The translations under genes and the position numbers were made by a program. This document shows, in pieces, positions 2,994 through 25,010 of a stretch of DNA of 64,000 bases. Each line of letters opens with the position of its first letter. Positions within the stretch are counted from its first letter, which is position 1. Source of the DNA: a virus; IMG/VR virus record IMGVR_UViG_3300010430_000024, positions 9,647-73,646 of that record, one strand, 5' to 3'. The notes beneath the pieces were generated by a model. That model saw nothing but the letters and a program-made list of their open reading frames with translations, had not been told where the DNA came from and did not search any database.

Positions 2994-3908
2994 TTATGCG
3001 CTTCCAGAACTTCCGAATGCGCCTCGGTAGTCAGACCAACCGAACGTGTAGCGTTCACGCGCTTTGTAACGCATGTTGCCAGTCTCGAAGTCGCCTTCAA
3101 GACCACGTTGGATGTTCTTCCTGACCATGTGCTTCAAGCCATCCGGGCAGTCAGTAATCAAAGTCCACGCACTGGGGTCCGTGAGACGATGATTCTTATG
3201 CGATCCACCGGGGATCATGCCCATCTTCTTCACGGCATTGATATCGTTGTCTGCCGTACCGGGACGGTAAGGAGACATCAACAGCCGCTCAGCGACAAAG
3301 CATAGGTCGGTTGGGATGATTAACTTGGTAGCTCGAACAGCGATAGGGATCGAACGCTCGTCCACGAACTTGCTGATGGCGATCAGAGCTTCCTCAAGAG
3401 AGGTCTCCGACAGGTCAGCCTGTGTCGTAAACGTGTTCGCCTGCGTGCCACCGCCGAAGAGCGGATGCGCCGTCGAGAACAACTCAACTCCGTCACCGCC
3501 CGGATAGGCAGAGTCGTAGCCGTTGTTCAAGGTAGCCGCACCTTTAACTTCCTTGGTGTGCTGCATTGAGCGTGCAAGTGCCTTGGAGTACTTAGAGCCG
3601 AACGATCCATACAGACCATCTTCCTCAGCTTCTTCCGTCAGGGAGAAGGCAAGGGCAATAGTCTCGTGGACATATCGTGACGTGAATGCTTCGCCGCCCT
3701 GATCATAACTGACCGGAGCACCTTCAGGCTTAACTGGAGCACCAGCCAGACCTGCAAGCAACACATCCTCTTCATACGCTTTAGTGGAATTCTCTACCGC
3801 ATAGATAGGTCTCCACTCCTGCTCGTACCTACGAAACTCCAGCCCGAAGACGGTGTTCAAGCCTTCTTGCAAGAGCTTACGAAAACGAGCGCGATTCATG
3901 ATAGCCAT
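2994..3908 (-). CDS. Major capsid protein (HK97 fold)
   Basis: RKLLQEGLNTVFGLE...TIALAFSLTEE...KALARSMQHTKEV...GDGVELFSTAHP...YKARERYTFGWSDYRG. Confidence 0.9.
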   Translation of the reverse strand: MAIMNRARFRKLLQEGLNTVFGLEFRRYEQEWRPIYAVENSTKAYEEDVLLAGLAGAPVKPEGAPVSYDQGGEAFTSRYVHETIALAFSLTEEAEEDGLYGSFGSKYSKALARSMQHTKEVKGAATLNNGYDSAYPGGDGVELFSTAHPLFGGGTQANTFTTQADLSETSLEEALIAISKFVDERSIPIAVRATKLIIPTDLCFVAERLLMSPYRPGTADNDINAVKKMGMIPGGSHKNHRLTDPSAWTLITDCPDGLKHMVRKNIQRGLEGDFETGNMRYKARERYTFGWSDYRGAFGSSGSA

Positions 3909-12369: not shown

Positions 12370-12384
12370 ACCCCTGTCTCCTGA

Positions 12385-14940
12385 TTACGTGGCGATTGTG
12401 TCTAGCTGCCTTACAACGGTCACTGCACCACCACTGGCTGTTACTTCTGCGTTCTGCGTGAATGGCAGGATCACCTTGCCCTGCCTGACGTTCACTACAG
12501 TGTCGAACACTGTTGATTGTACGAACGTGTTACTGGTCGTCGCACCTGTTGCTTCTACATCGAGAATCAAGTCGTACACAGTGTCGCTCGTGTCGTATGC
12601 CTGAATCGTCTCGTTGATGGTGTACGCCTCGCCAGAATCAGCGAGACCTCCAGCACCGTATACCAGCCTGATCACCAGCGTGTTGAGGTCAGTCCTGCTC
12701 ACCACTTCAAAGGTTGAGCTGCCAACAGACGCGAAGTGAATCAACATGCCCGGATTCACACCGTCAGTTACAAAGTCAGCAGTCGAGTCTTCGAGCAACG
12801 TATCTGTCGTACCTGTCGTGGTTGAGCTTGGAGTGACCGGATGCAAGACGAATGAACCACCTGCGCCTGTCACCCTGCTGTCGTACTCGTAGCGATGCTC
12901 TTCCTGCTCATCAACTGCGACCACTCGAACGTAACCAGCGGTTGGCACTTCGGTATCGACCGTGCCAGTGATCAGCAGAGTCGTTGCAGATATTCCCGTC
13001 GCTGCCATGCCACCGAACTGATCCTTATCGATGATGCCATCAACACCTGTGTCGCGAGCCACCAGCACCCTGTCGAGGGCCGCTGTATTCGAGACGATGA
13101 ATGACACGGTATTCGGGCTAACCCGTTGCGTACCGTTGTCATCGATCAGCGTGTATGCCTGCGTGTCGTTGTCGTGCTGTCCTGTGTACAGGATGCCGCG
13201 ACTTCCGAACAACTGAGTACCTGTGAACGTGCCGAATGGTGAGCCTTTGTTACTCGATGGGAAGTTCTGAATTGCCCCACCAGCGCCACCAGTGTCTGCA
13301 TTAACCGTGTCACCACCAGTCGTATCAGTCAGCAGGTCATTGTCAGCGATGCCATCAAGTGACGTTTGCTGATCGGTGACCATGATGTAGTTCTGCAACG
13401 TGCCTTCACCTGCTGCTGTTGCATTCACACCAAGCACTCGTGCTGTGTAGCCACCCTGCCCGGTGATGTCATCACCCTGAGTGAATGTGCCTGACTCAGT
13501 GACGGTCCAGACCTGCGCCTCGATGCCGTGATACTGCTCACCATCAACAGAGCAAGCCACCGTGTCCCAGAACGTGTTGTCCTGTCCACGTCGCGTCACA
13601 TACTTGATGCGCTCGTAGACATCGGCTACTGCGACACCGTTGGCACCCGGACCCTGTGCATCAATCGTCACCGAGTACGGCTCGGTTGTGCCTGATCCAT
13701 CATGGTCGGACAGCACATGACCGATGGTAATAGTCACTGTGCCACCGTTGCCTGCACCCGTCTCAGTCGGTCCACCTACATTCGCTGTCGGTGCGCCGTT
13801 GATCGTGCCGTTACGGTTGGCACTGGTGAAGGTGTCAGTCGTGGCAAATGGTGTGAGGTCTCCTACCTCGTAGTACTCGAACGTACCAGTTGCACCTGAG
13901 TCATTGACTGCGGTGACAACGTACGCGCCACCCTCCTTACTGCCAGTCGTGTTGTCCAGTACATCACCGACAAGCATCGCTGTACCCGTACCTGACTGCC
14001 ACACACCAGCCCAGTAGCCAGTGGTGTTGTTGATGTCAGGACTGGATGCCAGCGGCAGAGCTGAAAAGCCACCTGCTGCGACGTTCAGTCGGAAGTTGTC
14101 GTACAGGGATGTATACCTGCGAGCGAAGACCTCCAAGTCCTCGTCAGCGATGTCAACACCCTGTGTTCTGGTACGGACCAGAATGGAGATGATGCCCAGT
14201 GCGAGGGTTGGATCGGTTGCCCACCACTGGAACACATTGGTCGCTGAGTCTGCCAGCTTGATGCGGTTCTGCACCACGTACACCTCGGTAGCTGTTGGAA
14301 CGCTACCAATCGCCTGAATGGCTGTGTACTTGGTGATGCCGTCAGTCTCACCAGCGTCTGGTGTGTTCGAGCCTGTACCAGCTGGTGTATCACCTGTGCA
14401 ACTGATCGTGCCAGTCGTGTCATCGAATGAATCACCCGTTCCCGGTGTCGAGTCATCGGGCCTGATCCAGCACACGTTGGTGCCGTCAGGTTCGACCTCG
14501 AAGTCGAGTAGCGTACCAGTGTCGCCTGACACTGATGCCACTACCTGCTTGCCGATGTCACCAGCCACGAAGTCCGTGACGATGGTGTACGGTTTGCGAA
14601 TCACGCCGTTGCCGTTGGTGTCTGGCAAGATGACGTTGGTCCAGTCGGCTGTGATCGTTCCTTCTTTCAGGAACTCGGTTGACGAACGTGGGATGAAGTA
14701 CTTGTTCTCCATCGTGAATGCGTTCGGTGTGGTCGGCAGCATGGGGTTTGTGAATCCCATGGCCTGAAACGCATCAGCCTCATCAGCAACGGCTGAGTAA
14801 AGCTGGAGCGTCGTATAGACGGTTGTGCCTGCGCCTGATGCACGACGTATCATTCTCATGCCAGCATTTGCGTCAGCACCTACCGTCTCGTCATCAAAGA
14901 GGATTTCAAAGTCACCTCCGAGAATGCTGAGTGTAGTCAT
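12385..14940 (-). CDS. Large Gly/Thr/Asp-rich putative virion appendage protein
   Basis: 851 aa; composition typical of structural fibre/decoration proteins; GGAG SD. Confidence 0.6.
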   Translation of the reverse strand: MTTLSILGGDFEILFDDETVGADANAGMRMIRRASGAGTTVYTTLQLYSAVADEADAFQAMGFTNPMLPTTPNAFTMENKYFIPRSSTEFLKEGTITADWTNVILPDTNGNGVIRKPYTIVTDFVAGDIGKQVVASVSGDTGTLLDFEVEPDGTNVCWIRPDDSTPGTGDSFDDTTGTISCTGDTPAGTGSNTPDAGETDGITKYTAIQAIGSVPTATEVYVVQNRIKLADSATNVFQWWATDPTLALGIISILVRTRTQGVDIADEDLEVFARRYTSLYDNFRLNVAAGGFSALPLASSPDINNTTGYWAGVWQSGTGTAMLVGDVLDNTTGSKEGGAYVVTAVNDSGATGTFEYYEVGDLTPFATTDTFTSANRNGTINGAPTANVGGPTETGAGNGGTVTITIGHVLSDHDGSGTTEPYSVTIDAQGPGANGVAVADVYERIKYVTRRGQDNTFWDTVACSVDGEQYHGIEAQVWTVTESGTFTQGDDITGQGGYTARVLGVNATAAGEGTLQNYIMVTDQQTSLDGIADNDLLTDTTGGDTVNADTGGAGGAIQNFPSSNKGSPFGTFTGTQLFGSRGILYTGQHDNDTQAYTLIDDNGTQRVSPNTVSFIVSNTAALDRVLVARDTGVDGIIDKDQFGGMAATGISATTLLITGTVDTEVPTAGYVRVVAVDEQEEHRYEYDSRVTGAGGSFVLHPVTPSSTTTGTTDTLLEDSTADFVTDGVNPGMLIHFASVGSSTFEVVSRTDLNTLVIRLVYGAGGLADSGEAYTINETIQAYDTSDTVYDLILDVEATGATTSNTFVQSTVFDTVVNVRQGKVILPFTQNAEVTASGGAVTVVRQLDTIAT

Positions 14941-14952
14941 TGCGTGTTACTC

Positions 14953-17082
14953 CTAATCATTTAGTGGATCGAACTTTGCGATGGAGTCCACGGCTTGAGA
15001 AAGAGTAGCGGTAAGACCTGATGATGTAATGGTGCGAACAAGTTCGCCCGTTGGTGGTATGGGGAGATAGCGCGTCACATCTAGCGTGGCACTTCTGCCC
15101 AAGGCTTGGTTCGGAGACGATACCGAACCCACCAGCGCCCGTACAAAGAAGAACGGACCCTGTGAATTGATGGTCGTGGTAGCCCAGTCACCCGGTGCGG
15201 TCCACGACACGATGTTTGATCCTGACACACTGAACGACGATGTGCCATCCGTCACGCCAGTCAGTGCTGTCCATGCACCGTTCCAATACTGCCACGTGAT
15301 GGTGAAGCCTGAGCCTACATCACTGACATACTGCTTCAGTCGCGTGAACTCTTCCGAGTGACCGTACAGGTACGCATCACCGTTCACTGCTGTGGCTGGA
15401 GTCAGTGTCATGTCATCCACGGCATTGCTATTGGATACGGTTGTCTCATCGGTGAACGCTCCACCATCATCAGCGATGGCAGCGTTACACAGTCCTTGGT
15501 TACGCGCCCTGACAAGAACGTCGATTCCAGCACCAAAGGCTGCTTCGTAGTTGAATGTGGTGTCGGTCACTTTGCCAGTCGAGTCAGCCAGTCCTTCGAG
15601 CAACACATCACCGATAGTTACTGTGCCTAGTGTTTCGTTGGCAATCATGGTCGCTGCTGTGCCTTCCGCAAGACCATCGATGGTGATCGTGACAGCGTTG
15701 TTGATGGTCGGTGCTGTGCCTGAGTCCCTGATGGTGGGCGTAGCACCACCGTTCTGGATATTGATCGTTACAGCCGCATTAACTGAGATGTACACCTCTG
15801 CGTCTGTCGTGGCATCAGCGCCATAGCCGCTGTATGTGAAGTTGTCAAAGTCATAGGTGCCTGTCACGCTGATCTCGATGGCGTGACCTGTGCCGTCACT
15901 GTTGAACACAGCGCCAGCCACATTGTTACTGTCGCCACTGGTATCCAGTAGCACCGCACCGTTGGCATCGGTCGTACCGTTGTACGTCAGGTCCGACATG
16001 TTCATGCCGTTCCATATCATCTGGTCACAGTTGTTGAACGTGATCGAATCAGCGTTCTTGGATGCGTCAACACCCGGCCATGTGATTGCACCGAAGTCCA
16101 CGAATGAGCTGCCATCAAGAGTGATCTCATCAAAGTCTGCGTTGTCGAAGTAGAACTGACAGCGTGTACCAATGCTCTGGTTGGTAACACGTGTCTGCCT
16201 GAAGATGTTGGTGCCAGTGGCGTTACCTACCACTCGCATCGGGAAGTGATTGGCACCCACTGCGTGTCCACCACCATTGTCACCCACATACAGCCATGTC
16301 TCATCAGTGCCAGCGAATGCTGTAGTTGCAGTGCCTGCGTCTCCCCACTCTGTAGGCACGAAGATATAGTACGTTGAGCCAATGGGGTTCGAGAACATAC
16401 CAGCACCGACCGTGATGTCATCACCCACCAAGTCAGTCATAGTCTCTGGCGTACCTGATGTGCCTCCAGAGATGGTTGCACAGTAACCTGTGGTCGCGCT
16501 GGTGCTGTTGGCAAGGTAGTAGATGCCATCGAAGAAGGTGTTCGGGATCGTACCCTGTCCCTTAATCAGATGGATTGAGCCGTAACCCACCTGCTTGATG
16601 ATGGTCTGATCAAGCGTGGCTTCAGTACCTGCGTGAGTGTAGAAGTCCACGTTATCGGTGCCGGGTGCTGCCACGATAACTGACACATCCAGCTTCATGG
16701 TTGAGTACTTCTTCTCGTACGGTAAACCAATAACATCATAGCCAGCCACTGCATACCCGATGACATGGGTGCTGGTGCCATCTGCTGTGTCAGCGAGAAC
16801 AACCTGAGCGCCGAGTCCTGCAAAATTATCGTGCAGGTTGTCCTTGATCATCAGGTAGATGGTGGAGTCGGACAGATCAAGGTTGAACGTCGAACCAGCA
16901 GCGTCCTGATCGTATGCCAGATACTCCTGTGCGTTGGTAACCTGAAACTGCAACGCATTGGTGCCTTCGATGACAACACCAGACTCTGCTGTGTTCGACT
17001 GCGGGTCAGCGTTACTGTCCGATGCTACATCAGCAACAGCTTCACAATCTTGGAGTTGGGTTCTGTTATCAGCGAGTGCCAT
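14953..17082 (-). CDS. Large putative virion protein (beta-helix-like)
   Basis: 709 aa Gly/Thr/Asp/Asn-rich, repetitive beta pattern. Confidence 0.6.
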   Translation of the reverse strand: MALADNRTQLQDCEAVADVASDSNADPQSNTAESGVVIEGTNALQFQVTNAQEYLAYDQDAAGSTFNLDLSDSTIYLMIKDNLHDNFAGLGAQVVLADTADGTSTHVIGYAVAGYDVIGLPYEKKYSTMKLDVSVIVAAPGTDNVDFYTHAGTEATLDQTIIKQVGYGSIHLIKGQGTIPNTFFDGIYYLANSTSATTGYCATISGGTSGTPETMTDLVGDDITVGAGMFSNPIGSTYYIFVPTEWGDAGTATTAFAGTDETWLYVGDNGGGHAVGANHFPMRVVGNATGTNIFRQTRVTNQSIGTRCQFYFDNADFDEITLDGSSFVDFGAITWPGVDASKNADSITFNNCDQMIWNGMNMSDLTYNGTTDANGAVLLDTSGDSNNVAGAVFNSDGTGHAIEISVTGTYDFDNFTYSGYGADATTDAEVYISVNAAVTINIQNGGATPTIRDSGTAPTINNAVTITIDGLAEGTAATMIANETLGTVTIGDVLLEGLADSTGKVTDTTFNYEAAFGAGIDVLVRARNQGLCNAAIADDGGAFTDETTVSNSNAVDDMTLTPATAVNGDAYLYGHSEEFTRLKQYVSDVGSGFTITWQYWNGAWTALTGVTDGTSSFSVSGSNIVSWTAPGDWATTTINSQGPFFFVRALVGSVSSPNQALGRSATLDVTRYLPIPPTGELVRTITSSGLTATLSQAVDSIAKFDPLND

Positions 17083-17493
17083 CTACTGACCCCACCTGAC
17101 TGCTAACGCGATGGCTGCTGCATTGCATCCATAGAGGTGAGCCTTGGTTGGTCCAGCCTCAGTGCTGATGCTGTAGGTCTCATTGACTCGTGCGTGTTCC
17201 ATGTTGTTCATAGCAGTGTTGCCCACCACGATCACGATGTCCTCATCCTGTGGTATGGCAGACACCGGGTTGTAACCTGTTGGCTCAAGGAAGACTCGTG
17301 TACCCGGACCAGCACTAAGCAGTGCCGTCATCATGTTGTCGCACTGCATGAAGGCGTAGTTATCCATCGACTCAACCACAGGCGTGAAGATGAAGTTGTC
17401 AACCTTGAATGATCCCTTCAGTTGTCGCCACAGCTGCCACTCCACTTCAGGTGGCATCTGCGTGGTCTCCCATCGTGCGACGACCGTGATCAC
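17083..17493 (-). CDS. SPOUT (SpoU/TrmH-like) methyltransferase-like protein
   Basis: C-terminus DIVIVVGNT...YSIST...HLYGCNAAAIALAVRWGQ resembles SpoU motifs (hhhGxE...hxIP...SLNxxxAAxIxLY). Confidence 0.4.
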   Translation of the reverse strand: MITVVARWETTQMPPEVEWQLWRQLKGSFKVDNFIFTPVVESMDNYAFMQCDNMMTALLSAGPGTRVFLEPTGYNPVSAIPQDEDIVIVVGNTAMNNMEHARVNETYSISTEAGPTKAHLYGCNAAAIALAVRWGQ

Positions 17494-17663
17494 CTATTCA
17501 GGTCATCCGACATTGGCTTGCGTGCCTTCGGTCTATTGCGACCGGGATGTGCTCCACCCGGACCTGAATCACCCGGCTTGCCCGGTGTGGTTATCTTCTT
17601 CGGCTTTGTCTTTGCTCGCTCTGGTTTAGCCCAGTCGCGCCGCTGTCTGCTCATGTTGCTCAT
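17490..17663 (-). CDS. Small basic peptide (57 aa)
   Basis: MSNMSRQRRDWAKPERAKTKPKKITTPGKPG...; AGGAG SD; GTGA overlap with next gene; not in ORF track. Confidence 0.45.
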   Translation of the reverse strand: MSNMSRQRRDWAKPERAKTKPKKITTPGKPGDSGPGGAHPGRNRPKARKPMSDDLNR

Positions 17664-17672
17664 CTGCTGCTC

Positions 17673-18293
17673 CTATGAGTACGACAGGCTTAGCCTGTTG
17701 TCCCAGATGTTATCGAAGTTATCGTTGCCATCAGCAAACACGATAGCGATGTCACCGTCTGACTGCATGGTCAGTCGTGAGATGCGCCATGATGCTGCTG
17801 ATGTGAGTACACCGGGGAGTGCGTCACCACGGTAGGTCACCTCTGGAAATACAGAGGGGTCAATGGTGTCTGATCGAGTTGTTAGTGCCAAGCTGCCCGG
17901 ACTCCCTTGCAAGACCCATGACCCAGTGACCTTGAGATAGATGTCACCGTTGTCTGCGTCAGTGTAGACATCTCCATCGCTACCCAGACCAGCGCCCGGT
18001 GCGCCGTTGCCAACGTAGTGAGTATTGCCATCAGCGCCGTCCTGACCACTAACTCCTGCTGGACCAGCCGCACCATCAGCACCATCTTCTCCCTGCTCAC
18101 CCTGTGGGCCGCGTGGTGGCGTGTCTGATATGAGACCTTCTTCGTACCCTTCCTCATAGGCTGTCCACGAGCCACGGACCACTGATGCGTCGTAAGGGTT
18201 GTCGCGAGGACGACCAAACAAGGCATCGTTGAAGCCGTGGTCGAATGCGATCTTGCGTTGTCCAGAATATGCCAATGACTGTTCCCAATACAC
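17673..18293 (-). CDS. Collagen-repeat protein with RMF-like N-terminus
   Basis: GPQGEQGEDGADGAAGPAG repeats; GSDGDVYTD..NGDIYLK fibre motif. Confidence 0.6.
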   Translation of the reverse strand: MYWEQSLAYSGQRKIAFDHGFNDALFGRPRDNPYDASVVRGSWTAYEEGYEEGLISDTPPRGPQGEQGEDGADGAAGPAGVSGQDGADGNTHYVGNGAPGAGLGSDGDVYTDADNGDIYLKVTGSWVLQGSPGSLALTTRSDTIDPSVFPEVTYRGDALPGVLTSAASWRISRLTMQSDGDIAIVFADGNDNFDNIWDNRLSLSYS

Positions 18294-18444
18294 ATAGGGC
18301 AGCGGTTAAGCTGCCCCTGTTTGTTTGAGTCGCCACCTGTGGCAGGGACTAGGTGTTGATGGCTCAGCACCGTGCGCTATTCGTTACTGATTACTGACCG
18401 CGCTTGATCGCCATCGTTGTGAATCTTATACCATCAGCTGCTAA

Positions 18445-18567
18445 TCAGCCAGTCTTCTTCTTTGACTTCTTCTTGGTCTTCTTTTTGGTGGTAGCCGTAC
18501 CAGCTGATTGCTTAGCACGCAGCTCTTGGAGTTTGCGCCTCTGCGCCATGAAGGGTGTCTCGCTCAT
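18445..18567 (-). CDS. Lys-rich 40-aa peptide
   Basis: MSETPFMAQRRKLQELRAKQSAGTATTKKKTKKKSKKKTG; hand translated. Confidence 0.4.
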   Translation of the reverse strand: MSETPFMAQRRKLQELRAKQSAGTATTKKKTKKKSKKKTG

Positions 18568-18876
18568 AGTGTTAGTTCCATGTGATTAGCCCCTGTCGTA
18601 GATCATCGACCTCTTGCGCGGTCAATCCGAATGGTTCAGTTGTATTCCACGAGTGGTGGCGCAGCTCGAAGTGAGTGCCACAGTTGACGACCATGATGCT
18701 GTCACCCTCGTTCGGGCACAGTCGGTACACATCCACAGTGCCCGTCAGCTCATCGATTCCATCTTTGTTGCTCATGCGGTGCCTCGTCATACTATGCACC
18801 CCTGCAACGCCACTGTAACGCTTAGACGGGACAATGCAACTCCATATCGTCTTCAGTACCAACCTTACACCAACCA

Positions 18877-19398
18877 TTATCTCCATCCCTTGAGACCGTC
18901 CTCATCTTCTCGTATGCGCTCTCTTGGTGTGTAGGCTGTCGAGTAGTAGTCAGGCTCGTACACCTTGTCAGCAACGATCACATCATCTCCCAGTGAGTTC
19001 ACGCAGCTCCAGTACTCACGCTGCTGAGTGCTCTGTGAGCATTGCTGCTCTAAGGGGCTTTTGGTCCTATCCTGTGCCAGTGTTCCCTCAGTGAGGTGCT
19101 CTGGGTTCTCTATACGGTATCCTGATGCCAGTGACACCATGTTAGGTGTGTCTGCTTGCATAGGGGCTAGGGCTTTACTTGCGTGTCTTGCCAACCAACT
19201 GTAGAACTTCTTGATTGTGACCGTCTCATACTCAGGACCAATGTACCTGATGTTGTTGCCCATGATCTCGAAGATTGATGGACCATAGAACTGCTTGCCA
19301 CTGGGTATCGAGATCATCTTCTGTCCCGGTATCCACAGTCCAGCTGCGGTCATCACACCACCTGCCATCAGTCCCTTCAGTAAGTCTCGTCTGTTCAT
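18877..19398 (-). CDS. Tat-signal protein carrying a homologue of the N-terminal domain of the 851-aa virion protein
   Basis: MNRRDLLK + hydrophobic stretch; FYS..A..A...PM...TPN...Y.I...E.L.EGT matches the start of 12385-14940. Confidence 0.65.
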   Translation of the reverse strand: MNRRDLLKGLMAGGVMTAAGLWIPGQKMISIPSGKQFYGPSIFEIMGNNIRYIGPEYETVTIKKFYSWLARHASKALAPMQADTPNMVSLASGYRIENPEHLTEGTLAQDRTKSPLEQQCSQSTQQREYWSCVNSLGDDVIVADKVYEPDYYSTAYTPRERIREDEDGLKGWR

Positions 19399-19577
19399 TC
19401 CATAAATTCCCGGTACATCCTGTCCAGCAACTCCTGATCACTCTCCCTCCAGATGAAGGGCTTTGTGTACGGTGCGCCAGTGATCTTGATGTGCATCTCC
19501 TTGGCTGTCTCGATCATGGCGTGCTTCATCGCGTCCTTGATCCGCATCTCTTCGTATCCGTGGTTACCGTTCACCAT
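19395..19577 (-). CDS. Hypothetical protein
   Basis: 60 aa, coupled to both Tat ORFs. Confidence 0.45.
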   Translation of the reverse strand: MVNGNHGYEEMRIKDAMKHAMIETAKEMHIKITGAPYTKPFIWRESDQELLDRMYREFME

Positions 19578-19578
19578 G

Positions 19579-19821
19579 TTATTCCATCACCCTCATTCCA
19601 ACTACTTCTCGTGTCTCCATCATGGACTTAGCTAATGCCTTCGCATAGCGGTCGCTGATATCACCGTACAGACCCTCATCGATCTCTTCCTCGGTGATTG
19701 TGTACGCCAGCTTCACGCTTTTACGACCGAACTCTGGGAACTTCGGTGCCAGCTTTGATGCCATGGCGACCGTGGCAACACCTGCCACCAGTCCCTGCAT
19801 AAATTTGCGTCTACTTAGCAT
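19579..19821 (-). CDS. Tat-signal peptide fused to a major-capsid-like fragment
   Basis: MLSRRKFMQG...AMA signal; 20/38 ungapped identities to the phage's own capsid segment LAFSLTEE...TKEVKG. Confidence 0.75.
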   Translation of the reverse strand: MLSRRKFMQGLVAGVATVAMASKLAPKFPEFGRKSVKLAYTITEEEIDEGLYGDISDRYAKALAKSMMETREVVGMRVME

Positions 19822-20074
19822 ACGTCCAGTCTTCTGCCATCAGGTCACCCTGAGATGCCAGCCACGGCACAATGGTCCCTTGAGCGTTACGGATATCTAT
19901 GTGTGGCAGGTAATTGATCACAGTGCCCTCTGGGTAGATGCCAAGCAGTGGTGGTCTGTCCACCGTGAACGTACTGCCCGGCACAAGAAAGATGAACTGG
20001 TCTGCACCATTCCATCCCTCTCTGGTCATCCTGTTGCCTTCTTTGATCTCAAATAGTGCGTCTGAAAAATCCAT
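19811..20074 (-). CDS. tad2: DUF2829 / Tad2-family anti-defence sponge
   Basis: MDFSDAL..IKEG....REGWNG...PWLASQGDLMAEDW signature. Confidence 0.8.
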   Translation of the reverse strand: MDFSDALFEIKEGNRMTREGWNGADQFIFLVPGSTFTVDRPPLLGIYPEGTVINYLPHIDIRNAQGTIVPWLASQGDLMAEDWTYAK

Positions 20075-20238
20075 CATCTTTCTCCACTTTGGTAGCTCTA
20101 TCAATTACTGCAATCGTCTCTGCTGATATACCACGCATCCTAACGAACTGTGACATCTCCTTGAGTGCTTCGGCCTGTTCCCTAACCAAAGGACGTGAGG
20201 CTTTCACCTCATTGCGTAGCTCTCGCTCGCTCATCTTG

Positions 20239-20625
20239 TCAGGGTTCTTCATGCGCCTCTCTCCTTGCCTCAATCATTGGTCCGATGTTGCCCTTGCCGA
20301 CGACTTCCGTGTACCGCATAGTCCTCCCCGAAGCGTGATCAAGCACTTCGTTGCGCTCTGCGTGGTACGTTCGCACTCTTCCTGCATCCTTACGACGCGC
20401 ATTAGGTCTCTCGTAGTGGGAGAGTAATCGAGCAGCCAGATGATTGAACGCAGTTCTCTGATTTGTGACACGGCTTTTGCTGGCTGTTCCAATAGCTGTG
20501 ATACCAGTGTCACGATGCGTGATTCGGCAGCAGTTTTCGTGTTTATTTCTGTGTTGTCCACCGCTTCCCTCCCCGGAGTACCACTCCAGTTTGAAATCTT
20601 TTTTTGTGAGGTGTAGCTCATCCAT
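20239..20625 (-). CDS. Truncated class-I release factor-like peptidyl-tRNA hydrolase (GGQ)
   Basis: SGEGSGGQHRNK..CCRITH..TGI...SRVTNQ..A and RTYH..RNEVLDH; lacks stop-codon recognition domain. Confidence 0.85.
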   Translation of the reverse strand: MDELHLTKKDFKLEWYSGEGSGGQHRNKHENCCRITHRDTGITAIGTASKSRVTNQRTAFNHLAARLLSHYERPNARRKDAGRVRTYHAERNEVLDHASGRTMRYTEVVGKGNIGPMIEARREAHEEP

Positions 20626-21032
20626 TAGTCAATCGTCACACTCAGGTCATCAATGCCTGCTGGTGCTGCCAGCAGGGTGCCAGTTACCACAGCATCGACT
20701 GAGCGCCTGTCTGCTGTGTCCACAACTGTAGCCTTGAACGCATAGGTGCCTGCGGTTAGGTTGTCCACCACGAACGTCTGAGGGACATCTGAGGCAACTA
20801 CGACAACAGGGCTATAGTTCGCCCCACCATCAGCACTCATGCTGATCTCAGTTCCCATGATCTCGCTCACGTCCAATGCTACGCCGTCTTCGCGAGTCGT
20901 TGGTAGTGTCCAGTTCAGTGTCGCTCTTCCCATCTCAATCTCCAGTGTCATGTTACTGACAGGCATCGGCCTGTCGTTGATAAGTCCCAGCAGCCTCAAT
21001 AGCCACCGAACAAGTTTTAGCCACCAGCTCAT
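20625..21032 (-). CDS. Fibronectin type III-like protein
   Basis: ATLNWTLP...NLTAGTYAFKATVVD pattern. Confidence 0.6.
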   Translation of the reverse strand: MSWWLKLVRWLLRLLGLINDRPMPVSNMTLEIEMGRATLNWTLPTTREDGVALDVSEIMGTEISMSADGGANYSPVVVVASDVPQTFVVDNLTAGTYAFKATVVDTADRRSVDAVVTGTLLAAPAGIDDLSVTID

Positions 21033-21583
21033 GCGCAGTCAGCGACTACCAGTGGCTTGGGTATTACTCCCGATGACCAGCTCACACTGGTTGTCGGAAC
21101 TGCATATTTTCCATTTACATTCTGGTTGACGATGCACTCAACATCAGCACTGACCGTGCCTACTGGCAGCAACCAAAATCCATTCGCAATCGATACAGGC
21201 TGGTACACCATCGCACCCATTGCTGCGGTGAACGTGGTGACCGTTTTCTCTGCCTTGCCTGAAACTCGCGACTCTTCGCCGTCTGTCGTGTACGACGTTG
21301 CCACGTACTGGTAATCACCGGGGAGTTTTCCATTTAAGGTCACTGTCGTGGTCGCTGGATCGTCAATTTCAGCCACTAACTGCCATATTCGGGTGCCAGC
21401 CAGAGTGGTCAGCGGTCCAGCATCAGTGCATTGTTCCTGCCCTGTTGGGTTGGTCCAGTCCAGTATCACGTCATCAGCAAGTGCTTCCTTGACGCAGTAC
21501 GCAAAATACAACACCACTCCCACGGCAATCAGGGTTGGAAACCATAGGCTGTCGAAGAACTTTTTCATGAGCTGCACTGGCAC
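21029..21583 (-). CDS. Secreted/membrane FN3-like protein
   Basis: N-terminal hydrophobic signal ending ALA; LDWTNP...PGDYQYVATSY...ES. Confidence 0.55.
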   Translation of the reverse strand: MPVQLMKKFFDSLWFPTLIAVGVVLYFAYCVKEALADDVILDWTNPTGQEQCTDAGPLTTLAGTRIWQLVAEIDDPATTTVTLNGKLPGDYQYVATSYTTDGEESRVSGKAEKTVTTFTAAMGAMVYQPVSIANGFWLLPVGTVSADVECIVNQNVNGKYAVPTTSVSWSSGVIPKPLVVADCA

Positions 21584-21774
21584 TCATCAATCCTCAGATC
21601 GAGGAACACTGCATCCCATGTGGTCACTGGTGTATCGCAGAACTTGTTGTAGCTGGCTGCTTCGTTGTGTGCCATGAACCACACCATCAACACCAAGAAT
21701 GAAATCATGCCAGCAAACATCAGCGGCACCAGTATTCTGTCATCACTTAGTCTCATTTCGGCACCTCCAAGCAC
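21565..21774 (-). CDS. Small membrane protein
   Basis: One TM helix. Confidence 0.45.
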   Translation of the reverse strand: MLGGAEMRLSDDRILVPLMFAGMISFLVLMVWFMAHNEAASYNKFCDTPVTTWDAVFLDLRIDECQCSS

Positions 21775-21989
21775 TGAGCCACAAGCGCATACTTGTAGGT
21801 CTGTTTCGCCTTCGGGTTTGCTTCAGTCAGGCTCTCTGCTGCTGCCTGACAATCCTCCATCGTCTTGAAGCCCTCGATCCTCTGTGGATCGGTTACGCCG
21901 TTGTTCACCATCACCCAGAACAGCAGTATTACTTTCATCCTCTTCCCCTGTTGACAACAGACAGCACTCCGCTTCGTCACATGCGTCAC
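21753..21989 (-). CDS. Small hypothetical protein (true start probably MKVILLF)
   Basis: F.TMEDCQAAA...C motif common in small phage proteins. Confidence 0.45.
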   Translation of the reverse strand: MTHVTKRSAVCCQQGKRMKVILLFWVMVNNGVTDPQRIEGFKTMEDCQAAAESLTEANPKAKQTYKYALVAQCLEVPK

Positions 21990-22019
21990 TACACGGAATG
22001 CTACCCGTTGCGTAACACA

Positions 22020-22730
22020 TTAGCTGTGATCAGCCTCTGTGGTGTCGCTGTTTAGGACCACCGAGGATGCAGACTTCAGAGTTTCTTCTGGGTCTACACT
22101 GTCAGGGTCCAGTCCAGCATCGTGGTAGAACGACTGTGTTGCTCCTGCTGCCCCACCAACGGACGTATTGCAAGCGTACGTCGATGTTGCCTGTGCAAGA
22201 TTCATCATAGCCGCGCCTCTCAAATTACTTGAGAAGTTCGCCACGTTGCCAATGCCAAAGTCATAGCCAGCGTTCCACGCTTGTTCACCTTCACCGAGGT
22301 ATACAAACGTCCAGCCTCTCTTCTTCTCCAGCCTTTTGACCATGTTCTTGATGCGTTCCTGATTGTATTGACTCGAAGCGTTCTCGTAGCCATCAGTGTG
22401 AACAACGAACAGGACCTTAGCTTCTTTCGGAAGACGCTCTTTTGTCTTCTTGATCAGCATACCCATTGCGTCGTAAAGCGGAGTACCACCACAAGGCTGG
22501 TACTGATCCATCGTCAGCGCGTAGCACTCTTTCACCTTACGGTTTTTGAATACCTTGCGAAGATATGGAATACCCGGACGTGCATCAAATTTGTAGAGCG
22601 AGATAAAGCATCGCTTCGTCTCTTTCTTCAGGTTTGAAACATAGTCGTTGAAGGAGTCAATCACAGATTTGCGATGACACCCCATGGAACCGCTTTCATC
22701 AAGCAGCATTACTACATGCGTTTTTTGCAT
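22020..22730 (-). CDS. Stand-alone von Willebrand factor A domain protein
   Basis: MIDAS LLDESGSM, GGTPLYDAM, VHTDGYENAS. Confidence 0.85.
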   Translation of the reverse strand: MQKTHVVMLLDESGSMGCHRKSVIDSFNDYVSNLKKETKRCFISLYKFDARPGIPYLRKVFKNRKVKECYALTMDQYQPCGGTPLYDAMGMLIKKTKERLPKEAKVLFVVHTDGYENASSQYNQERIKNMVKRLEKKRGWTFVYLGEGEQAWNAGYDFGIGNVANFSSNLRGAAMMNLAQATSTYACNTSVGGAAGATQSFYHDAGLDPDSVDPEETLKSASSVVLNSDTTEADHS

Positions 22731-23061
22731 GGTCATCTCCAGACAGAGACAGCTTGAACGCTGCCTCAATAGTTGGCAGAGAAGTTATGGCCTCTGCCGT
22801 GCCATATCTCTTGACCATCCTACAGACCTCACTGAAGTCCGACATCCGCGTGAATCTGTCGTGACTACAACACGACTGCCAGTCTCTTCCCCTGCAAATC
22901 TGGTACGCCAGTTGCGACCGTCTTGCAGCAGCACGCACGACCGTTTTCCGGTGGTGCTGAAGATTCCATTTCGCCATGCCATGGAGCTTGCTTTCTTCCT
23001 TTCGGATGGTCCTCGCCTCATCAGCGAGGTTCTTGATTTTGATCTTGAGTTCAATGCTCAT
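22699..23061 (-). CDS. Conserved phage hypothetical protein
   Basis: LKIKIKNLADEARTIRKEE...HR..VVR..AR..QLAY motif. Confidence 0.6.
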   Translation of the reverse strand: MSIELKIKIKNLADEARTIRKEESKLHGMAKWNLQHHRKTVVRAAARRSQLAYQICRGRDWQSCCSHDRFTRMSDFSEVCRMVKRYGTAEAITSLPTIEAAFKLSLSGDDHAKNACSNAA

Positions 23062-23285
23062 TTTAATGTCCCTTGATAGATTAAAGTTTTTAGCGTTTTT
23101 CTTTAATCTGGGACGGGCGGCGCTCTACATTCAGTTCATCTCTGTATCCTCAGTTGTAAGTACCGCCGATAAGGGGTGCACTACCACCCCTCATCGACTT
23201 GAGGGCATCATCACCCCCTTACGGACATTCTATTTTTTTCTCGGAGCTGAATGTCTAAGGCGCTCCACTTCGGTGTACACGGATT

Positions 23286-23360
23286 TGGACCCGCTGCCGG
23301 GAGTCGAACCCGGTCTCTCCGCTTTGAAAGGCGTTGACACTCCACAGTGCCTTCAGCGAG
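23286..23360 (-). tRNA. Atypical tRNA-like gene (8-nt anticodon loop; UUC or UCA)
   Basis: Acceptor CUCGCUG/CAGCGGG, U73, CCA; T arm CCGGG-UUCGACU-CCCGG; D stem GGCAC/GUGUC; anticodon arm CGC-CUUUCAAA-GCG. Confidence 0.6.
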
Positions 23361-23412
23361 TTAATGTACTTTGTACTTTACCACATAGTGTGAACTAATT
23401 CACACTATCTGA

Positions 23413-23724
23413 TCATTGTCCTGCCATGATCCTGAGTATCTCTTTGGTGTCCTCTTCGACAAGTTCAACCTGCTCACTGACACGTCCGATCTCAGTCCTC
23501 GCTCCAGTGATTGCGTTCGTGTTCGTTTGGATTGCGCCAGTCATCTGCACGATGGCTGGTTGCTCCAGTGTCTGTGTCTTGATGGCTTTGGATATCTTCG
23601 CATCCAACCATAGCTCGCTGTAGCCAAACATCAGCCCAACAACCACACCATAAATAGGCCAACCCTTGATCATCATCTTGATGATCTCAGCCAGCCTGTC
23701 TACTGCTTGATCTTCGTTGCTCAT
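23413..23724 (-). CDS. Membrane protein with coiled coil
   Basis: One TM segment then heptad-like region. Confidence 0.5.
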   Translation of the reverse strand: MSNEDQAVDRLAEIIKMMIKGWPIYGVVVGLMFGYSELWLDAKISKAIKTQTLEQPAIVQMTGAIQTNTNAITGARTEIGRVSEQVELVEEDTKEILRIMAGQ

Positions 23725-24656
23725 TCATCAGGTTCCTTGTCTTCCCCTTTGTTATAACGAGCATCGAGACGGCGCTTAAATTGTGCGCGGATATCGGATT
23801 GCTTTTTCTCTTCAGCTTCCTGCGCGGCCCGAAGAGCTGCCGCTTCCTGCTTTAGTCGATCAATGTCTTCATCGTCAGTCTCGTGCTTTGCTATCTCCAG
23901 CTTCAGCTCTTCAATTAAGCTCTGCTGTTGGGAGTGACGATACTCACCAAGCTCGACAGCTTCCTCAAACTCTTCTTTCTGCACTGCTTGTGCCATTAGG
24001 TCACTGTACTCAGCCTCATCTATCTGGATCATCCCAGTAGGCACTGGTGCTGGTTGGATGGGTTCGGGTTCAGGGGCGATGGTCGGCATCTCTATGCGCC
24101 GACTCCCACCAAACTCAAACCCAAAGCTACCTCGTACTGCTGTCTCGTCACCAGCTCTACCGACTGATAGTGTCAGTGCAGAGTTGCGTTCGTTATCGAA
24201 CATGTACGCATAGCCAACACCAACACCTGTCGTGTTGTTGATTTTTGCCCCACTAAAGGTAATGCGCTGAGTCTGGTCCTGCGGCAAAAATACCTGCATG
24301 GCTGTCTGTGCTGCTAACGCATCACGTGCTGACTGAATCCATTTATTGTGGATGTTGAATGTGTTGTTGGTGTTAGTGATCCACTCTGTTGGAACCACAC
24401 CATCCTTGCCGTCAATGCCGTCGCGTCCGTCTTTACCATCAATGCCATCAATACCGTCAATGCCGTCGCGTCCGTCCTGCCCATCAGCACCATCAGCACC
24501 ATCAGCGCCATCCTCGCCTTCATAGCCGCAACCATGCTCCAAGAATCGTGGGTGGTCACACTCTTCCCAGTCTGTTGCGTACGCTGCTGACGTGGTAAAC
24601 ATAAACCACGCAACCAACATCAACGCGCCGAGACTAAGCCCCGTCGTCGTCTTCAT
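23721..24656 (-). CDS. YadA-anchor trimeric autotransporter-like protein with collagen-like repeats and C-terminal extension
   Basis: Signal peptide; (G.DG.D)n repeats; ALAAQTAM..LPQ...GVGVGYAY...VRGSFGFEF anchor; start uncertain. Confidence 0.7.
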   Translation of the reverse strand: MKTTTGLSLGALMLVAWFMFTTSAAYATDWEECDHPRFLEHGCGYEGEDGADGADGADGQDGRDGIDGIDGIDGKDGRDGIDGKDGVVPTEWITNTNNTFNIHNKWIQSARDALAAQTAMQVFLPQDQTQRITFSGAKINNTTGVGVGYAYMFDNERNSALTLSVGRAGDETAVRGSFGFEFGGSRRIEMPTIAPEPEPIQPAPVPTGMIQIDEAEYSDLMAQAVQKEEFEEAVELGEYRHSQQQSLIEELKLEIAKHETDDEDIDRLKQEAAALRAAQEAEEKKQSDIRAQFKRRLDARYNKGEDKEPDE

Positions 24657-24773
24657 CAATCCCGTCATCATCAAAGTCCTCGTCGTATTGATAGCACTGT
24701 GCAGTCGCCAGCACCTCAATAAGTTTCTCCAACGCTGGGCTTACCTCCAGCTTTATCGTTATCGTCACATCGC

Positions 24774-25010
24774 TCATACGAGACGTTCCTGAACGCCTTC
24801 ATACTGAAGGTGGTTGTCCACCTTCTCGCGACTCACGAACTCGTGCTTCCACAGTTTCCTCAGCGCCTTCTGGGCTGAGCTGTAGCTCGTCCGATACCTT
24901 GTCGTCGCTCCCCGTATGGTCAACTTCATACCGGGCGTTAAGTCCTGAATAATCTGATCCTCTATCGCCATCAGTCCATCCTCCGATGCTTGATTCTGGC
25001 AGCTGCACAA
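24774..25010 (-). CDS. Small winged-HTH-like protein
   Basis: TSYSSAQKALRKL...VSRE pattern. Confidence 0.4.
   Translation of the reverse strand: MCSCQNQASEDGLMAIEDQIIQDLTPGMKLTIRGATTRYRTSYSSAQKALRKLWKHEFVSREKVDNHLQYEGVQERLV

What the first reader, a model, noticed from the sequence alone, without database searches (positions are those of the whole stretch)
18877..19398. Second Tat-signal ORF carries a copy of the N-terminal domain of the 851-aa virion protein
Seen: MNRRDLLKGL signal, then IR...TV.T...FYS..A..A...PM...TPN.......Y.I...E.L.EGT...D. This matches IRRASGAGTTVYTTLQLYSAVADEA...PMLPTTPNAFTMENKYFIPRSSTEFLKEGTITAD of 12385-14940. Two neighbouring genes with the same Tat + virion-fragment design point to a general strategy, not an accident. 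Inference: a cassette of exported or membrane-tethered virion-protein mimics (decoys or superinfection exclusion).
Basis: partly seen in the sequence, partly recalled or inferred. Interest (0 to 1): 0.7.

Follow-up and report, generated by a model that had tools for sequence, protein, structure and literature searches.

The report
Tat-leader phage protein copying virion part
A small phage gene joins an export-type leader peptide, shared almost unchanged by hundreds of otherwise unrelated small phage proteins, to a diverged copy of the first domain of the phage's own large structural protein, which points to an undescribed way in which phages re-use pieces of their particle proteins.

Summary
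ORF 18877-19398(-) encodes 173 aa: a twin-arginine leader, then a folded domain homologous to residues ~30-99 of the 851-aa protein (BLASTP E 0.004; profile-profile 93.6%, E 2.2e-7). The neighbouring 80-aa Tat-signal ORF copies capsid-protein residues 50-128 (E 7e-13). New here: the first 32 residues (RR, then LWxPGxKLISIP) form a portable module. A profile search found 361 clusters at E<=0.001; of the 150 listed, most match the leader alone and carry unrelated tails. RR is present in 157 of 157 and the module is kept at protein level. The copied domain is the N-terminal domain of a widespread 545-860-aa phage protein superfamily that includes the 851-aa protein. Other leader proteins carry that superfamily's C-terminal or middle parts, or capsid-protein pieces. 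I found no match in the Pfam, PHROGs, NCBIfam or PADLOC scans, in cultured phages, or in two pattern scans of GTDB species genomes. Function is untested. Most likely it is a Tat-targeted, membrane-tethered or periplasmic mimic of a virion part. Decoy or exclusion remains inference.

The parts
18877..19398 (-). Whole ORF, 173 aa plus stop
   Evidence: 26 homologues at E<=0.01. 361 clusters at E<=0.001 by profile search.
19303..19398 (-). Leader module, residues 1-32: MNRRDLLKGLMAGGVMTAAGLWIPGQKMISIP (Tat-type n- and h-regions, then the LWxPGxKxISIP motif)
   Evidence: Column counts over 166 family proteins: R3 157/157, R4 157/157, W22 164/166, P24 164/166, I29 163/166, P32 162/162. Synonymous codons vary. 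Pfam TAT_signal 19.9 bits, below the cut-off of 22.7.
19387..19392 (-). Twin-arginine codons (R3, R4)
   Evidence: Invariant in 157 of 157. Encoded by AGA, AGG and CGN codons across 45 distinct leaders.
19009..19278 (-). Folded cargo domain, residues ~41-130
   Evidence: AlphaFold2 block pLDDT 96-81 over residues 41-130. No PDB fold match: Foldseek 0 at E<=0.001; VIA-align best Z 2.8.
19069..19251 (-). Core homologous to the N-terminal domain of the 851-aa protein, residues 50-110
   Evidence: hhalign probability 93.6%, E 2.2e-7. A7 profile hit on residues 48-112, E 0.0017.
18880..18927 (-). C-terminal tail PRERIREDEDGLKGWR, residues 158-173
   Evidence: Conserved in the close family. The tail regex flagged 27 of 216 proteins, 26 of them true GxKGWR/GYR-type tails (one, L065, is a false match). 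A different tail, FEDL[SDV], occurs on 10 proteins with at least 3 unrelated middle domains.
12385..14940 (-). Parent-type gene: 851-aa beta-rich protein, member of a 545-860-aa phage superfamily
   Evidence: 386 relatives at E<=0.01. hhalign against the 545-860-aa family: probability 99.9%, E 3.8e-35, 456 columns. AlphaFold2 pLDDT 82.
14644..14853 (-). Residues 30-99 of the 851-aa protein, the copied N-terminal domain core
19579..19821 (-). Neighbouring 80-aa ORF: Tat signal (MLSRRKFMQGL...AMA) plus a capsid-protein fragment
   Evidence: TIGR01409 18.4 bits, above the cut-off of 16.7. BLASTP against the capsid protein E 7e-13. It lies directly upstream of the leader ORF in relatives L016, L020 and L023 as well.
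3525..3761 (-). Capsid-protein residues 50-128, source-type segment of the 80-aa ORF's cargo
   Evidence: The capsid protein is Pfam Phage_capsid_4, E 3.4e-11.

Best explanation
The ORF is one member of a large, undescribed family of small phage proteins (52-254 aa) built from swappable modules.

Module 1 is a near-invariant 32-residue leader: a twin-arginine (Tat-type) signal followed by the motif LWxPGxKLISIP. Module 2 is a variable cargo. In this phage the cargo is a folded, much diverged copy of the N-terminal domain of the phage's own 851-aa protein. That protein belongs to a conserved 545-860-aa superfamily whose gene, in a distant relative (L107), sits in the particle-building gene block. 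Module 3 is a short acidic and aromatic tail.

Proposed working:
- The gene sits in a tightly packed same-strand run between the small and large terminase genes, so it is probably made late with the particle genes.
- The RR leader takes the folded protein to the host Tat translocase.
- The protein ends up on the periplasmic face of the inner membrane, tethered if the signal is not cut.
- The copied domain then acts by mimicry: it binds, or competes for, whatever the original domain binds.

Shown: the module structure, the homology of the cargo, protein-level conservation of the leader, restriction to phage and metagenome contigs, and recurrence of virion-protein pieces as cargo.

Inferred: Tat export, topology, late expression, and the mimicry or competition function.
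For: Leader:
- RR in 157 of 157. W22, P24, I29, S30, I31 and P32 are each kept in at least 158 of the 162-166 sequences that cover them.
- All synonymous Arg and Ser codons are used. 59% of codon pairs with the same residue differ. Differences by codon position are 9593, 5670 and 19492.
- Pfam TAT_signal is the only family hit by many members: 41 of 67 at E<=0.1.
- Only 1 of 216 proteins has a second hydrophobic segment.

Cargo homology:
-.
- Confident fold for residues 41-130, with the same order of secondary-structure elements as the 851-aa model.

Modularity:
- Close relatives with the same flanking genes (L027, L028: VWA 65%, collagen-like 79%, 709-aa protein 54% identical) carry an unrelated middle domain behind the same leader.
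- The FEDL tail occurs on at least 3 unrelated domains.

Recurrence of virion pieces:
- Cargo from the N-domain of the superfamily in 29 of 233 leader proteins, from its C-terminal domain in 3, and from its middle in 2.
- Capsid-protein pieces in P0202, P0203, L060-L062 and L011, and in the 80-aa ORF.

Position:
- Between or next to the terminase genes in at least 3 phage groups.
- 49 of 54 metagenome copies are complete short ORFs.
- One copy in this 73,646-bp genome, rated complete by CheckV.
Against: - The 173-aa protein scores below the curated Tat cut-offs: Pfam 19.9 against 22.7, TIGR01409 14.0 against 16.7.
- There is no clear AxA cleavage site.
- Nothing shows export, expression or binding.
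- Virion proteins are assembled in the cytoplasm. A periplasmic copy meets its original, or that original's partner, only before export or on incoming particles. Capsid-derived cargoes fit neither case well.
- For most of the listed cargoes no source protein was found. Cargo compared with genes within about 8 kb in 12 IMG/VR loci gave no match to any other gene at E<=0.01. PHROGs hit 2 of 150, both weakly.
- The 851-aa protein is not proven to be a virion protein.
- No leader ORF lies within 9 kb of 80 genes of the large-protein family.
Confidence: 0.4

Rival explanations
1. Anti-defence decoy acting from the cytoplasmic side. The cargo copies parts of abundant late proteins (capsid protein, the large structural protein) that host abortive-infection sensors recognise. 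The fragment binds such a sensor without setting it off. The leader then parks the complex at the membrane or at the Tat translocase, or takes it out of the cytoplasm by Tat 'hitchhiking'.
For: - The ORF lies 413 bases downstream of a Tad2-like anti-Thoeris gene (E 9.9e-23). Tad2 homologues lie on 3 relatives' contigs that also hold the leader ORF: L017, L022 and L023.
- The sources of cargo are capsid protein and a large conserved structural-module protein.
- Cargo is swapped between close relatives, as expected in an arms race.
- From general knowledge, not tested here: capsid proteins are common triggers of abortive-infection sensors (Lit/Gol, CapRel, PifA), and Tat exports folded complexes.
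Against: - No sensor is known for these proteins.
- No precedent for a trigger-mimic decoy in phages was found in 4 literature searches.
- A trigger mimic could just as well activate a sensor.
- Most of the listed cargoes show no similarity to known proteins.
- PADLOC has no hit for the region, but it holds defence families, not counter-defence ones.
Confidence: 0.2
2. Minor particle protein. The cargo is a docking piece that takes the place of its parent domain on the capsid or tail. It thereby carries the conserved hydrophobic leader on the particle as a membrane-active peptide used at infection. The likeness to a Tat signal is secondary.
For: - Position within or next to the packaging and structural genes in several phage groups.
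- The cargoes are contact elements of particle proteins: the capsid N-arm, the E-loop with the following helix, the C-terminal hairpin, and the N- and C-terminal domains of the large protein. The names of the capsid elements come from general knowledge of the HK97 fold, not from a model made here.
- The leader is conserved across phages whose contigs range from 33% to 64% G+C.
Against: - The invariant RR with an S/T/N/D residue before it and F/L-L after it is the Tat consensus and is not needed for a simple membrane peptide.
- A working Tat signal would remove the protein from the site of assembly.
- There are no proteomic data.
- Permuted mosaics such as L062 (capsid residues 279-301 followed by 53-76) are unlikely to fit a lattice.
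Confidence: 0.12
3. Lysis-related membrane protein (spanin-like, antiholin-like or a lysis timer). In T7-type phages the genes between the small and large terminase genes are spanins (recalled). An N-in, C-out single-pass protein made late would fit this.
For: - In the G+C-rich group with a T7-type portal, the gene order is small terminase, leader ORF, a 175-181-aa ORF, large terminase.
- There is a single N-terminal hydrophobic segment.
- Many other signal- or membrane-anchor-bearing ORFs lie in the same interval of the window.
Against: - The cargo is a mixed alpha/beta domain, not a coiled coil.
- The cargoes are unrelated to each other.
- There is no lipobox ORF in 17-26 kb. The 3 candidates in the whole window all lie elsewhere.
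- The invariant RR and the LWxPGxKLISIP motif are not spanin features.
Confidence: 0.08
4. Chance similarity or a decaying gene fragment without function.
For: - The direct BLASTP signal is weak (E 0.004).
- Identity to the parent domain is only 26%.
Against: - Profile-level significance.
- A conserved family with a confident fold.
- Protein-level selection on the leader.
- Conserved pairing with the 80-aa ORF in L016, L020 and L023.
Confidence: 0.03

Closest known systems
Twin-arginine (Tat) signal peptides, including uncleaved Tat signal anchors such as that of bacterial Rieske proteins (Pfam PF10518, PF10399; TIGR01409)
   Same: - N-terminal (S/T/N/D)-R-R-x-(F/L)-L, then a Gly/Ala-rich hydrophobic stretch of about 13 residues, then Pro-Gly and a basic residue.
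- TAT_signal is the only Pfam family hit by many members: 41 of 67.
- One member weakly hits the Rieske Tat-signal family.
   Different: - Ordinary Tat signals are poorly conserved outside RR. Here 32 residues are nearly fixed across 166 proteins that are otherwise mostly unrelated, including a 12-residue motif after the hydrophobic stretch.
- No AxA site is evident.
- The 173-aa protein is below both curated cut-offs.
- Export is not tested.
Families with a conserved leader and a hypervariable cargo: double-glycine-leader bacteriocins, Nif11/NHLP-leader peptide precursors, and polymorphic toxins with a fixed trafficking domain and swappable C-terminal domains (recalled from general knowledge)
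   Same: - A fixed N-terminal module joined to many unrelated C-terminal parts.
- Cargo is exchanged between close relatives.
   Different: - The leader here is Tat-type.
- The cargoes are 20-220-aa protein pieces, several derived from the phage's own capsid and large structural proteins.
- No modifying enzyme, transporter or immunity gene was seen next to it.
- The family was found only on phage and metagenome contigs.
Phage superinfection-exclusion and envelope proteins with an N-terminal anchor or signal (T4 Imm and Sp, T5 Llp, TP-J34 Ltp, lactococcal Sie2009; recalled)
   Same: A small phage-encoded protein with an N-terminal signal or anchor and an outward-facing domain.
   Different: - No sequence relationship: Pfam, PHROGs and NCBIfam give nothing beyond the Tat signal.
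- Those proteins are not copies of virion domains.
- Most of them come from prophages or early genes, whereas no copy of this family turned up in two pattern scans of 185,579 GTDB species genomes.
Paralogous decoys of pathogens (Phytophthora PsXLP1 shielding PsXEG1) and capsid-fragment triggers of phage defence (T4 Gol peptide and Lit); recalled
   Same: A truncated paralogue, or a short piece, of a functional protein that is recognised in place of the full protein.
   Different: - There is no evidence here for any host binder.
- A Tat leader is not part of those systems.
N-terminal domain of the 545-860-aa phage protein superfamily found here (alignments A7 and A2); unnamed, with no Pfam or PHROGs family
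   Same: The cargo of the 173-aa protein is homologous to this domain.
   Different: - In the large proteins the domain starts at residue 4-63 (median 5) and is followed by more than 400 residues of beta-rich domains.
- Here it follows a leader and ends after about 90 residues with a different tail.

Membership tests
Tat signal peptide (PF10518 / TIGR01409) | Twin-arginine consensus (S/T)-R-R-x-F-L-K at the N-terminus | tested here: met
   The sequence reads N-R-R-D-L-L-K. RR is kept in 157 of 157 family members. Position 2 is N, T, S or D in 155 of 157. Position 6 is F or L in 145 of 157.
Tat signal peptide (PF10518 / TIGR01409) | Score at or above the curated family cut-off | tested here: not met
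   Pfam 19.9 bits against a cut-off of 22.7. TIGR01409 14.0 against 16.7. The neighbouring 80-aa ORF does pass TIGR01409 (18.4). 41 of 67 family members hit PF10518 at E<=0.1.
Tat signal peptide (PF10518 / TIGR01409) | c-region with a signal-peptidase site (small residues at -3 and -1, typically AxA) | tested here: inconclusive
   No AxA is present. A-A-G before L21 or V-A-G before E/L is allowed by the -3/-1 rule, judged by eye only. No predictor was available.
Tat signal peptide (PF10518 / TIGR01409) | Tat-dependent export of the folded protein | not testable with these tools
   Needs expression in wild-type and tat-deficient laboratory strains.
N-terminal domain of the 851-aa / 545-860-aa phage protein superfamily | Significant profile similarity over the domain | tested here: met
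   hhalign probability 93.6%, E 2.2e-7. The A3 profile finds 162 large proteins at E<=10, best E 2.7e-10 against 5.8 billion sequences; the 120 listed reach E 1.9e-5. A7 profile against the 173-aa protein E 0.0017.
N-terminal domain of the 851-aa / 545-860-aa phage protein superfamily | Same fold or order of secondary-structure elements | tested here: inconclusive
   The DSSP strings of the two AlphaFold2 models give the same order (strand, strand-helix, strand, strand, short helix, strand) under the hhalign register. The two models were not superposed.
N-terminal domain of the 851-aa / 545-860-aa phage protein superfamily | Domain sits at the very N-terminus of a large multi-domain protein | tested here: not met
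   Here it starts at about residue 41 behind a leader in a 173-aa protein. In 120 of 120 large proteins it starts at residue 4-63, median 5.
Two-component spanin (inner-membrane subunit) | Periplasmic coiled-coil domain, and a partner lipoprotein gene embedded, overlapping or adjacent | tested here: not met
   The model is a mixed alpha/beta domain. The lipobox scan found 3 ORFs in the window, at 5836, 9140 and 49465, and none in 17-26 kb.
Known superinfection-exclusion or defence families | Sequence membership in a described family | tested here: not met
   No family in PHROGs or PADLOC. Pfam and NCBIfam give nothing beyond the sub-threshold Tat-signal hit.

The most novel reading that the evidence does not exclude
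The 32-residue leader is a universal tow-hook, and the family is a set of phage-made adaptors. Each adaptor uses a piece of a capsid or tail protein as a grip on a full-length partner. That partner could be the phage's own or a rival phage's particle protein, or a host sensor that recognises that piece. The adaptor drags the partner to, or through, the Tat translocase by hitchhiking. Phages would thereby relocate or remove cytoplasmic proteins by way of a host export machine. The invariant LWxPGxKLISIP motif would be the part that holds or stalls the complex at the translocase or membrane.
Probability: 0.12. Interest if true: 0.9.

Novelty: new variant of a known kind. Interest (0 to 1): 0.72.

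Why it matters
If the reading holds, phages carry a widespread, unrecognised toolkit: one fixed export-type leader joined to interchangeable cargoes, several of them cut from the phage's own capsid and large structural proteins.

- It would give a name and a testable design to hundreds of small "hypothetical" phage proteins. The profile search found 361 clusters at 50% identity.
- It would define a new N-terminal domain shared with an abundant, unannotated 545-860-aa phage protein family (366 IMG/VR loci).
- It opens the question of why a virus would send copies of its own particle parts to the cell envelope. Exclusion of rivals, decoys for host immunity and control of assembly or lysis are all open to ordinary bench tests.
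- The leader is also a candidate for a compact, highly conserved Tat-targeting tag.

Tried and rejected
- **Complex prediction.** 851-aa residues 1-330 with the cargo residues 36-173: no answer, score 0.00. This is not evidence either way.
- **Public sequencing runs.** No RNA holder was listed, and the 3 DNA runs have small shares only. This allows no statement on expression or habitat.
- **Fold searches with the 173-aa model.** Foldseek against PDB gave 0 of 413 matches at E<=0.001. VIA-align against 48,161 chains gave a best Z of 2.8. No known fold was assigned.
- **Fold searches with the 851-aa model.** PDB gave only generic multi-beta-domain proteins with TM below 0.1. BFVD gave 94 matches at E<=0.001 to phage proteins named VrlC-like, DUF4815, baseplate J-like or virion-associated, but with TM about 0.1. 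This is a weak hint of a structural role only.
- **ESM Atlas.** Best score 0.85, under the 0.9 bar.
- **Terminase-like cargo.** My impression that some cargoes (P0199, P0216, P0227, L053, and the G+C-rich group with GGRGGGKT) are terminase fragments got no support from BLASTP, phmmer or Pfam, so I dropped it.
- **Longer homology for the 173-aa protein.** Extension of its similarity into 851-aa residues 200-305 was not supported. Only the long forms P0021, L037 and P0217 match a second segment of the large-protein profile (positions 154-191; E 2.4e-7, 0.0033, 0.0055).
- **Origin of the leader motif.** The idea that LWxPGxK derives from the capsid C-terminus rests on one alignment. The leader profile finds no capsid protein, so this remains unsupported.
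- **Cargo against nearby genes.** Comparison with genes within about 8 kb in 12 IMG/VR loci gave no match to any other gene at E<=0.01.
- **Cultured phages.** No DNA or protein match for the region, the 173-aa protein, the 851-aa protein or P0290.
- **GTDB species genomes.** Two pattern scans gave 168 and 313 pattern matches, none confirmed.
- **Literature.** Four full-text searches listed nothing on Tat-leader phage proteins carrying virion fragments. I saw only listings and the starts of abstracts and read no paper.
Full report
**Setting.** The window is bases 9647-73646 of a 73,646-bp IMG/VR virus record that CheckV rates as complete. It is a tailed phage. Pfam finds the following:
- small terminase, 25561-26178(-)
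- large terminase, 9351-11006(-)
- an HK97-type capsid protein, 2994-3908(-) (Phage_capsid_4, E 3.4e-11)
- a 3941-aa protein with LPD38 and GGDEF domains

An 810-aa ORF at 6916-9348(-), placed where a portal gene would be expected, has no Pfam family. The collection of cultured phages holds no match to the region, the 173-aa protein or the 851-aa protein. The 14.5 kb between the two terminase genes is a tight minus-strand run. It holds many small ORFs with signal or anchor-like N-termini, two collagen-repeat proteins, a VWA protein, an RF-1-domain protein, a Tad2-like gene, the two Tat-signal ORFs, and the 709-aa and 851-aa proteins.

**The observation.** ORF 18877-19398(-) has an ATG start, encodes 173 aa and begins MNRRDLLKGLMAGGVMTAAGLWIPGQKMISIPSGK.
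- BLASTP against the 851-aa protein gives E 0.004, 31 of 120 identical, residues 51-150 against 33-152. This is suggestive only.
- The protein has 26 homologues at E<=0.01 in the word-indexed search. Their alignment shows a conserved domain and tail.
- Profile against profile, the signal grows with alignment depth. It is P 2.1e-4 with 22 sequences. It is probability 93.6%, E 2.2e-7 over 66 columns with 47 sequences against 59 relatives of the 851-aa protein, residues 50-110 against 30-99.
- Intermediate members hit the 851-aa protein directly: P0156 E 7e-9, P0162 9e-7, P0020 4.7e-6, P0231 1.2e-5.
- AlphaFold2 models residues 41-130 with block pLDDT of 81-96. Under the hhalign register, the order of strands and helices equals that of residues about 30-99 of the 851-aa model.

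**What the copied domain is.** The profile of the 173-aa family, searched among longer proteins, found 162 proteins of 446-2000 aa at E<=10 (best E 2.7e-10 against 5.8 billion sequences).
- In all 120 listed proteins the match is the protein's own N-terminus (start at residue 4-63, median 5). It covers the cargo columns 44-139 of the profile and not the leader.
- These 545-860-aa proteins are homologous to the 851-aa family over 456 columns (probability 99.9%, E 3.8e-35).
- They are frequent: 366 IMG/VR loci, about 55-70% identical to the query.
- They have no Pfam or PHROGs family and no cultured-phage match.
- In locus L107 the gene follows large terminase, a 589-aa ORF with no Pfam family (in the portal position), a scaffold-like ORF, a P22-type capsid protein and three small genes. 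In L082 it precedes a 1165-aa protein with an endosialidase beta-barrel.
- BFVD fold matches of the 851-aa model are to phage proteins named VrlC-like, DUF4815, baseplate J-like and virion-associated, with high probability but TM about 0.1.

The 851-aa protein is therefore probably a particle (tail-side) protein. This is not proven.

**The leader is the surprise.** A profile search of 1.84 billion representatives found 361 clusters at E<=0.001.
- Most of the 150 listed match only positions 1-35 to 1-45, at 55-80 bits. They carry unrelated C-terminal parts, 54-254 aa in all.
- Over 166 family proteins the columns are nearly fixed: R3 157/157, R4 157/157, W22 164/166, P24 164/166, G25 161/165, K27 148/166 (R in 14 more), I29 163/166, S30 158/166, I31 161/166, P32 162/162.
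- The conservation is at protein level. In 45 distinct leaders from fetched loci the fixed Arg and Ser use all their codon families. 59% of identical-residue codon pairs differ. Third positions carry most differences: 9593, 5670 and 19492 by codon position.
- Pfam TAT_signal is the only family hit by many members, 41 of 67 at E<=0.1. The 173-aa protein itself stays below both curated cut-offs.
- Variant leaders (L013, L014, P0163, P0176, P0217, P0267) have a linker between the hydrophobic stretch and ELWxPxxKxISIP. The signal and the second motif are therefore separable.
- Only 1 of 216 proteins has a second hydrophobic segment.
- The window holds one canonical leader. The 80-aa ORF matches only the RR and hydrophobic part (16.5 bits).

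**Where the family occurs.**
- There are 14 IMG/VR loci and 54 metagenome loci.
- 49 of the 54 metagenome copies are complete short ORFs with their own stop, as are the IMG/VR copies.
- No copy was confirmed in two pattern scans of 185,579 GTDB species genomes.
- PHROGs hits 2 of 150 members, both weakly.
- In a G+C-rich group with a T7-type portal and an Sf6-type small terminase, the order is small terminase, leader ORF, a 175-181-aa ORF, large terminase, portal.
- In L060 and L062 the leader ORF lies just upstream of a large terminase. In L045 and L053 it lies next to portal-like and terminase-like genes.

**Modularity.** Close relatives of this phage keep the flanking genes but differ in the middle domain. 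In L027 and L028 the VWA protein is 65% identical, the collagen-like protein 79% and the 709-aa protein 54%, yet an unrelated middle domain sits behind the same leader. A tail ending FEDL[SDV] is found on 10 proteins with at least 3 unrelated middle domains. The tail regex flagged 27 proteins for the GxKGWR/GYR type of tail seen on this ORF, of which 26 are true matches.

**Recurrence of particle-protein pieces.**
- The 80-aa ORF 19579-19821(-) passes TIGR01409 (18.4 against 16.7). It matches capsid-protein residues 50-128 at E 7e-13. It has no similarity to the 851-aa protein.
- A homologue of the 80-aa ORF lies directly upstream of the leader ORF in L016, L020 and L023.
- P0203 carries the same capsid piece behind the canonical leader. 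P0202 carries capsid residues 2-30.
- L062 carries capsid residues 279-301 followed by 53-76, a permuted mosaic (E 4e-6 and 4e-5).
- L011 matches the C-terminal 70 residues of the Phage_capsid_2 protein of the related L005 (E 9e-5).
- Profiles of the large-protein superfamily, run against 233 leader proteins, find its N-terminal domain in 29, its C-terminal domain in 3 (P0181 E 5.4e-15, P0192, L057), and middle pieces in 2 (P0172, P0177).
- Against this, most of the listed cargoes have no detectable source. No leader ORF lies within 9 kb of 80 genes of the large-protein family.

**Mechanism.**
- Shown: the three-module build, the origin of the cargo, selection on the leader, and restriction to phage and metagenome contigs.
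- Inferred: the invariant RR within a Tat consensus makes Tat targeting the most economical reading. I put it at about 0.65. The protein would then be exported folded, tethered or released at the periplasmic face.
- The cargo is a copy of an end domain of a particle protein. Elsewhere in the family the cargoes are contact elements of the capsid protein. The shared logic is therefore most likely binding by mimicry.
- What is bound, and where, is open. I rank the options as follows:
  - cytoplasm-side decoy for host sensors, favoured by the nearby Tad2-like gene, 0.20
  - minor particle protein carrying a membrane-active peptide, 0.12
  - lysis-related protein, 0.08
  - chance or relic, 0.03
- The complex prediction gave no answer, and no RNA data were found.

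**Comparison and novelty.**
- The leader works like a Tat signal but is far more conserved than any Tat signal family I could test, and it carries a second motif.
- The leader-plus-variable-cargo design resembles bacteriocin or peptide-precursor leaders and polymorphic toxins (recalled). The cargo here, however, is made partly of the phage's own particle proteins.
- Four literature searches listed nothing on this. I saw listings only.
- I rate it a new variant of a known kind, with a real chance of being more.

Noticed in passing
window 19811-20104 (-): A Tad2-like (Thoeris anti-defence 2) domain protein, Pfam E 9.9e-23. Its end overlaps the start of the 80-aa Tat-signal ORF by 11 bases. Homologues lie on the relatives' contigs L017, L022 and L023, which also hold the leader ORF.
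   Followed up: partly
window 37893-39563 (+): A phage-encoded Ro60-like protein: TROVE domain (E 7.1e-39) plus Ro60 vWA domain (E 5.7e-60). No Y-RNA-like partner was looked for.
   Followed up: no
window 20239-20625 (-): A 128-aa RF-1 domain protein with a GGQ motif (peptidyl-tRNA hydrolase / ArfB-like), Pfam E 8.4e-15. It is conserved next to the leader ORF in L001.
   Followed up: no
window 47327-59152 (-): A 3941-aa protein with a GGDEF domain (residues 895-1005) and an LPD38 domain (residues 3567-3735).
   Followed up: no
window 9351-26178: The small terminase gene (25561-26178) and the large terminase gene (9351-11006) are 14.5 kb apart. The interval holds many ORFs with signal- or anchor-like N-termini: the 332-aa and 206-aa collagen-repeat proteins and the 184-, 135-, 103-, 78- and 69-aa ORFs. 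Together these look like an envelope-directed gene block.
   Followed up: partly
window 11003-11809 (-) and 12385-14940 (-): The 268-aa ORF just upstream of the large terminase gene shares a module of about 60 residues (DxxADFVTxGVxxG...DLNTL) with residues 718-775 of the 851-aa protein (BLASTP E 6e-4).
   Followed up: partly
L062:1913-2341 (also L060, L061): The cargo behind the leader is a permuted mosaic of the capsid protein: residues like 279-301 (the C-terminal hairpin) run straight into residues like 53-76.
   Followed up: partly
window 6148-6546 (-): A Cpn10 (GroES)-like protein, Pfam E 2.4e-10, lying between the 810-aa ORF in the portal position and the head genes.
   Followed up: no
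L008:9119-9334 and L008:8493-9038 (G+C-rich group): Between the leader ORF and the large terminase gene lie two ORFs. One is a conserved 175-181-aa ORF beginning MG/MAGxPxIxTSIHG, with no Pfam family. The other is a 71-aa ORF with an N-terminal membrane segment and a Cys-rich tail.
   Followed up: no
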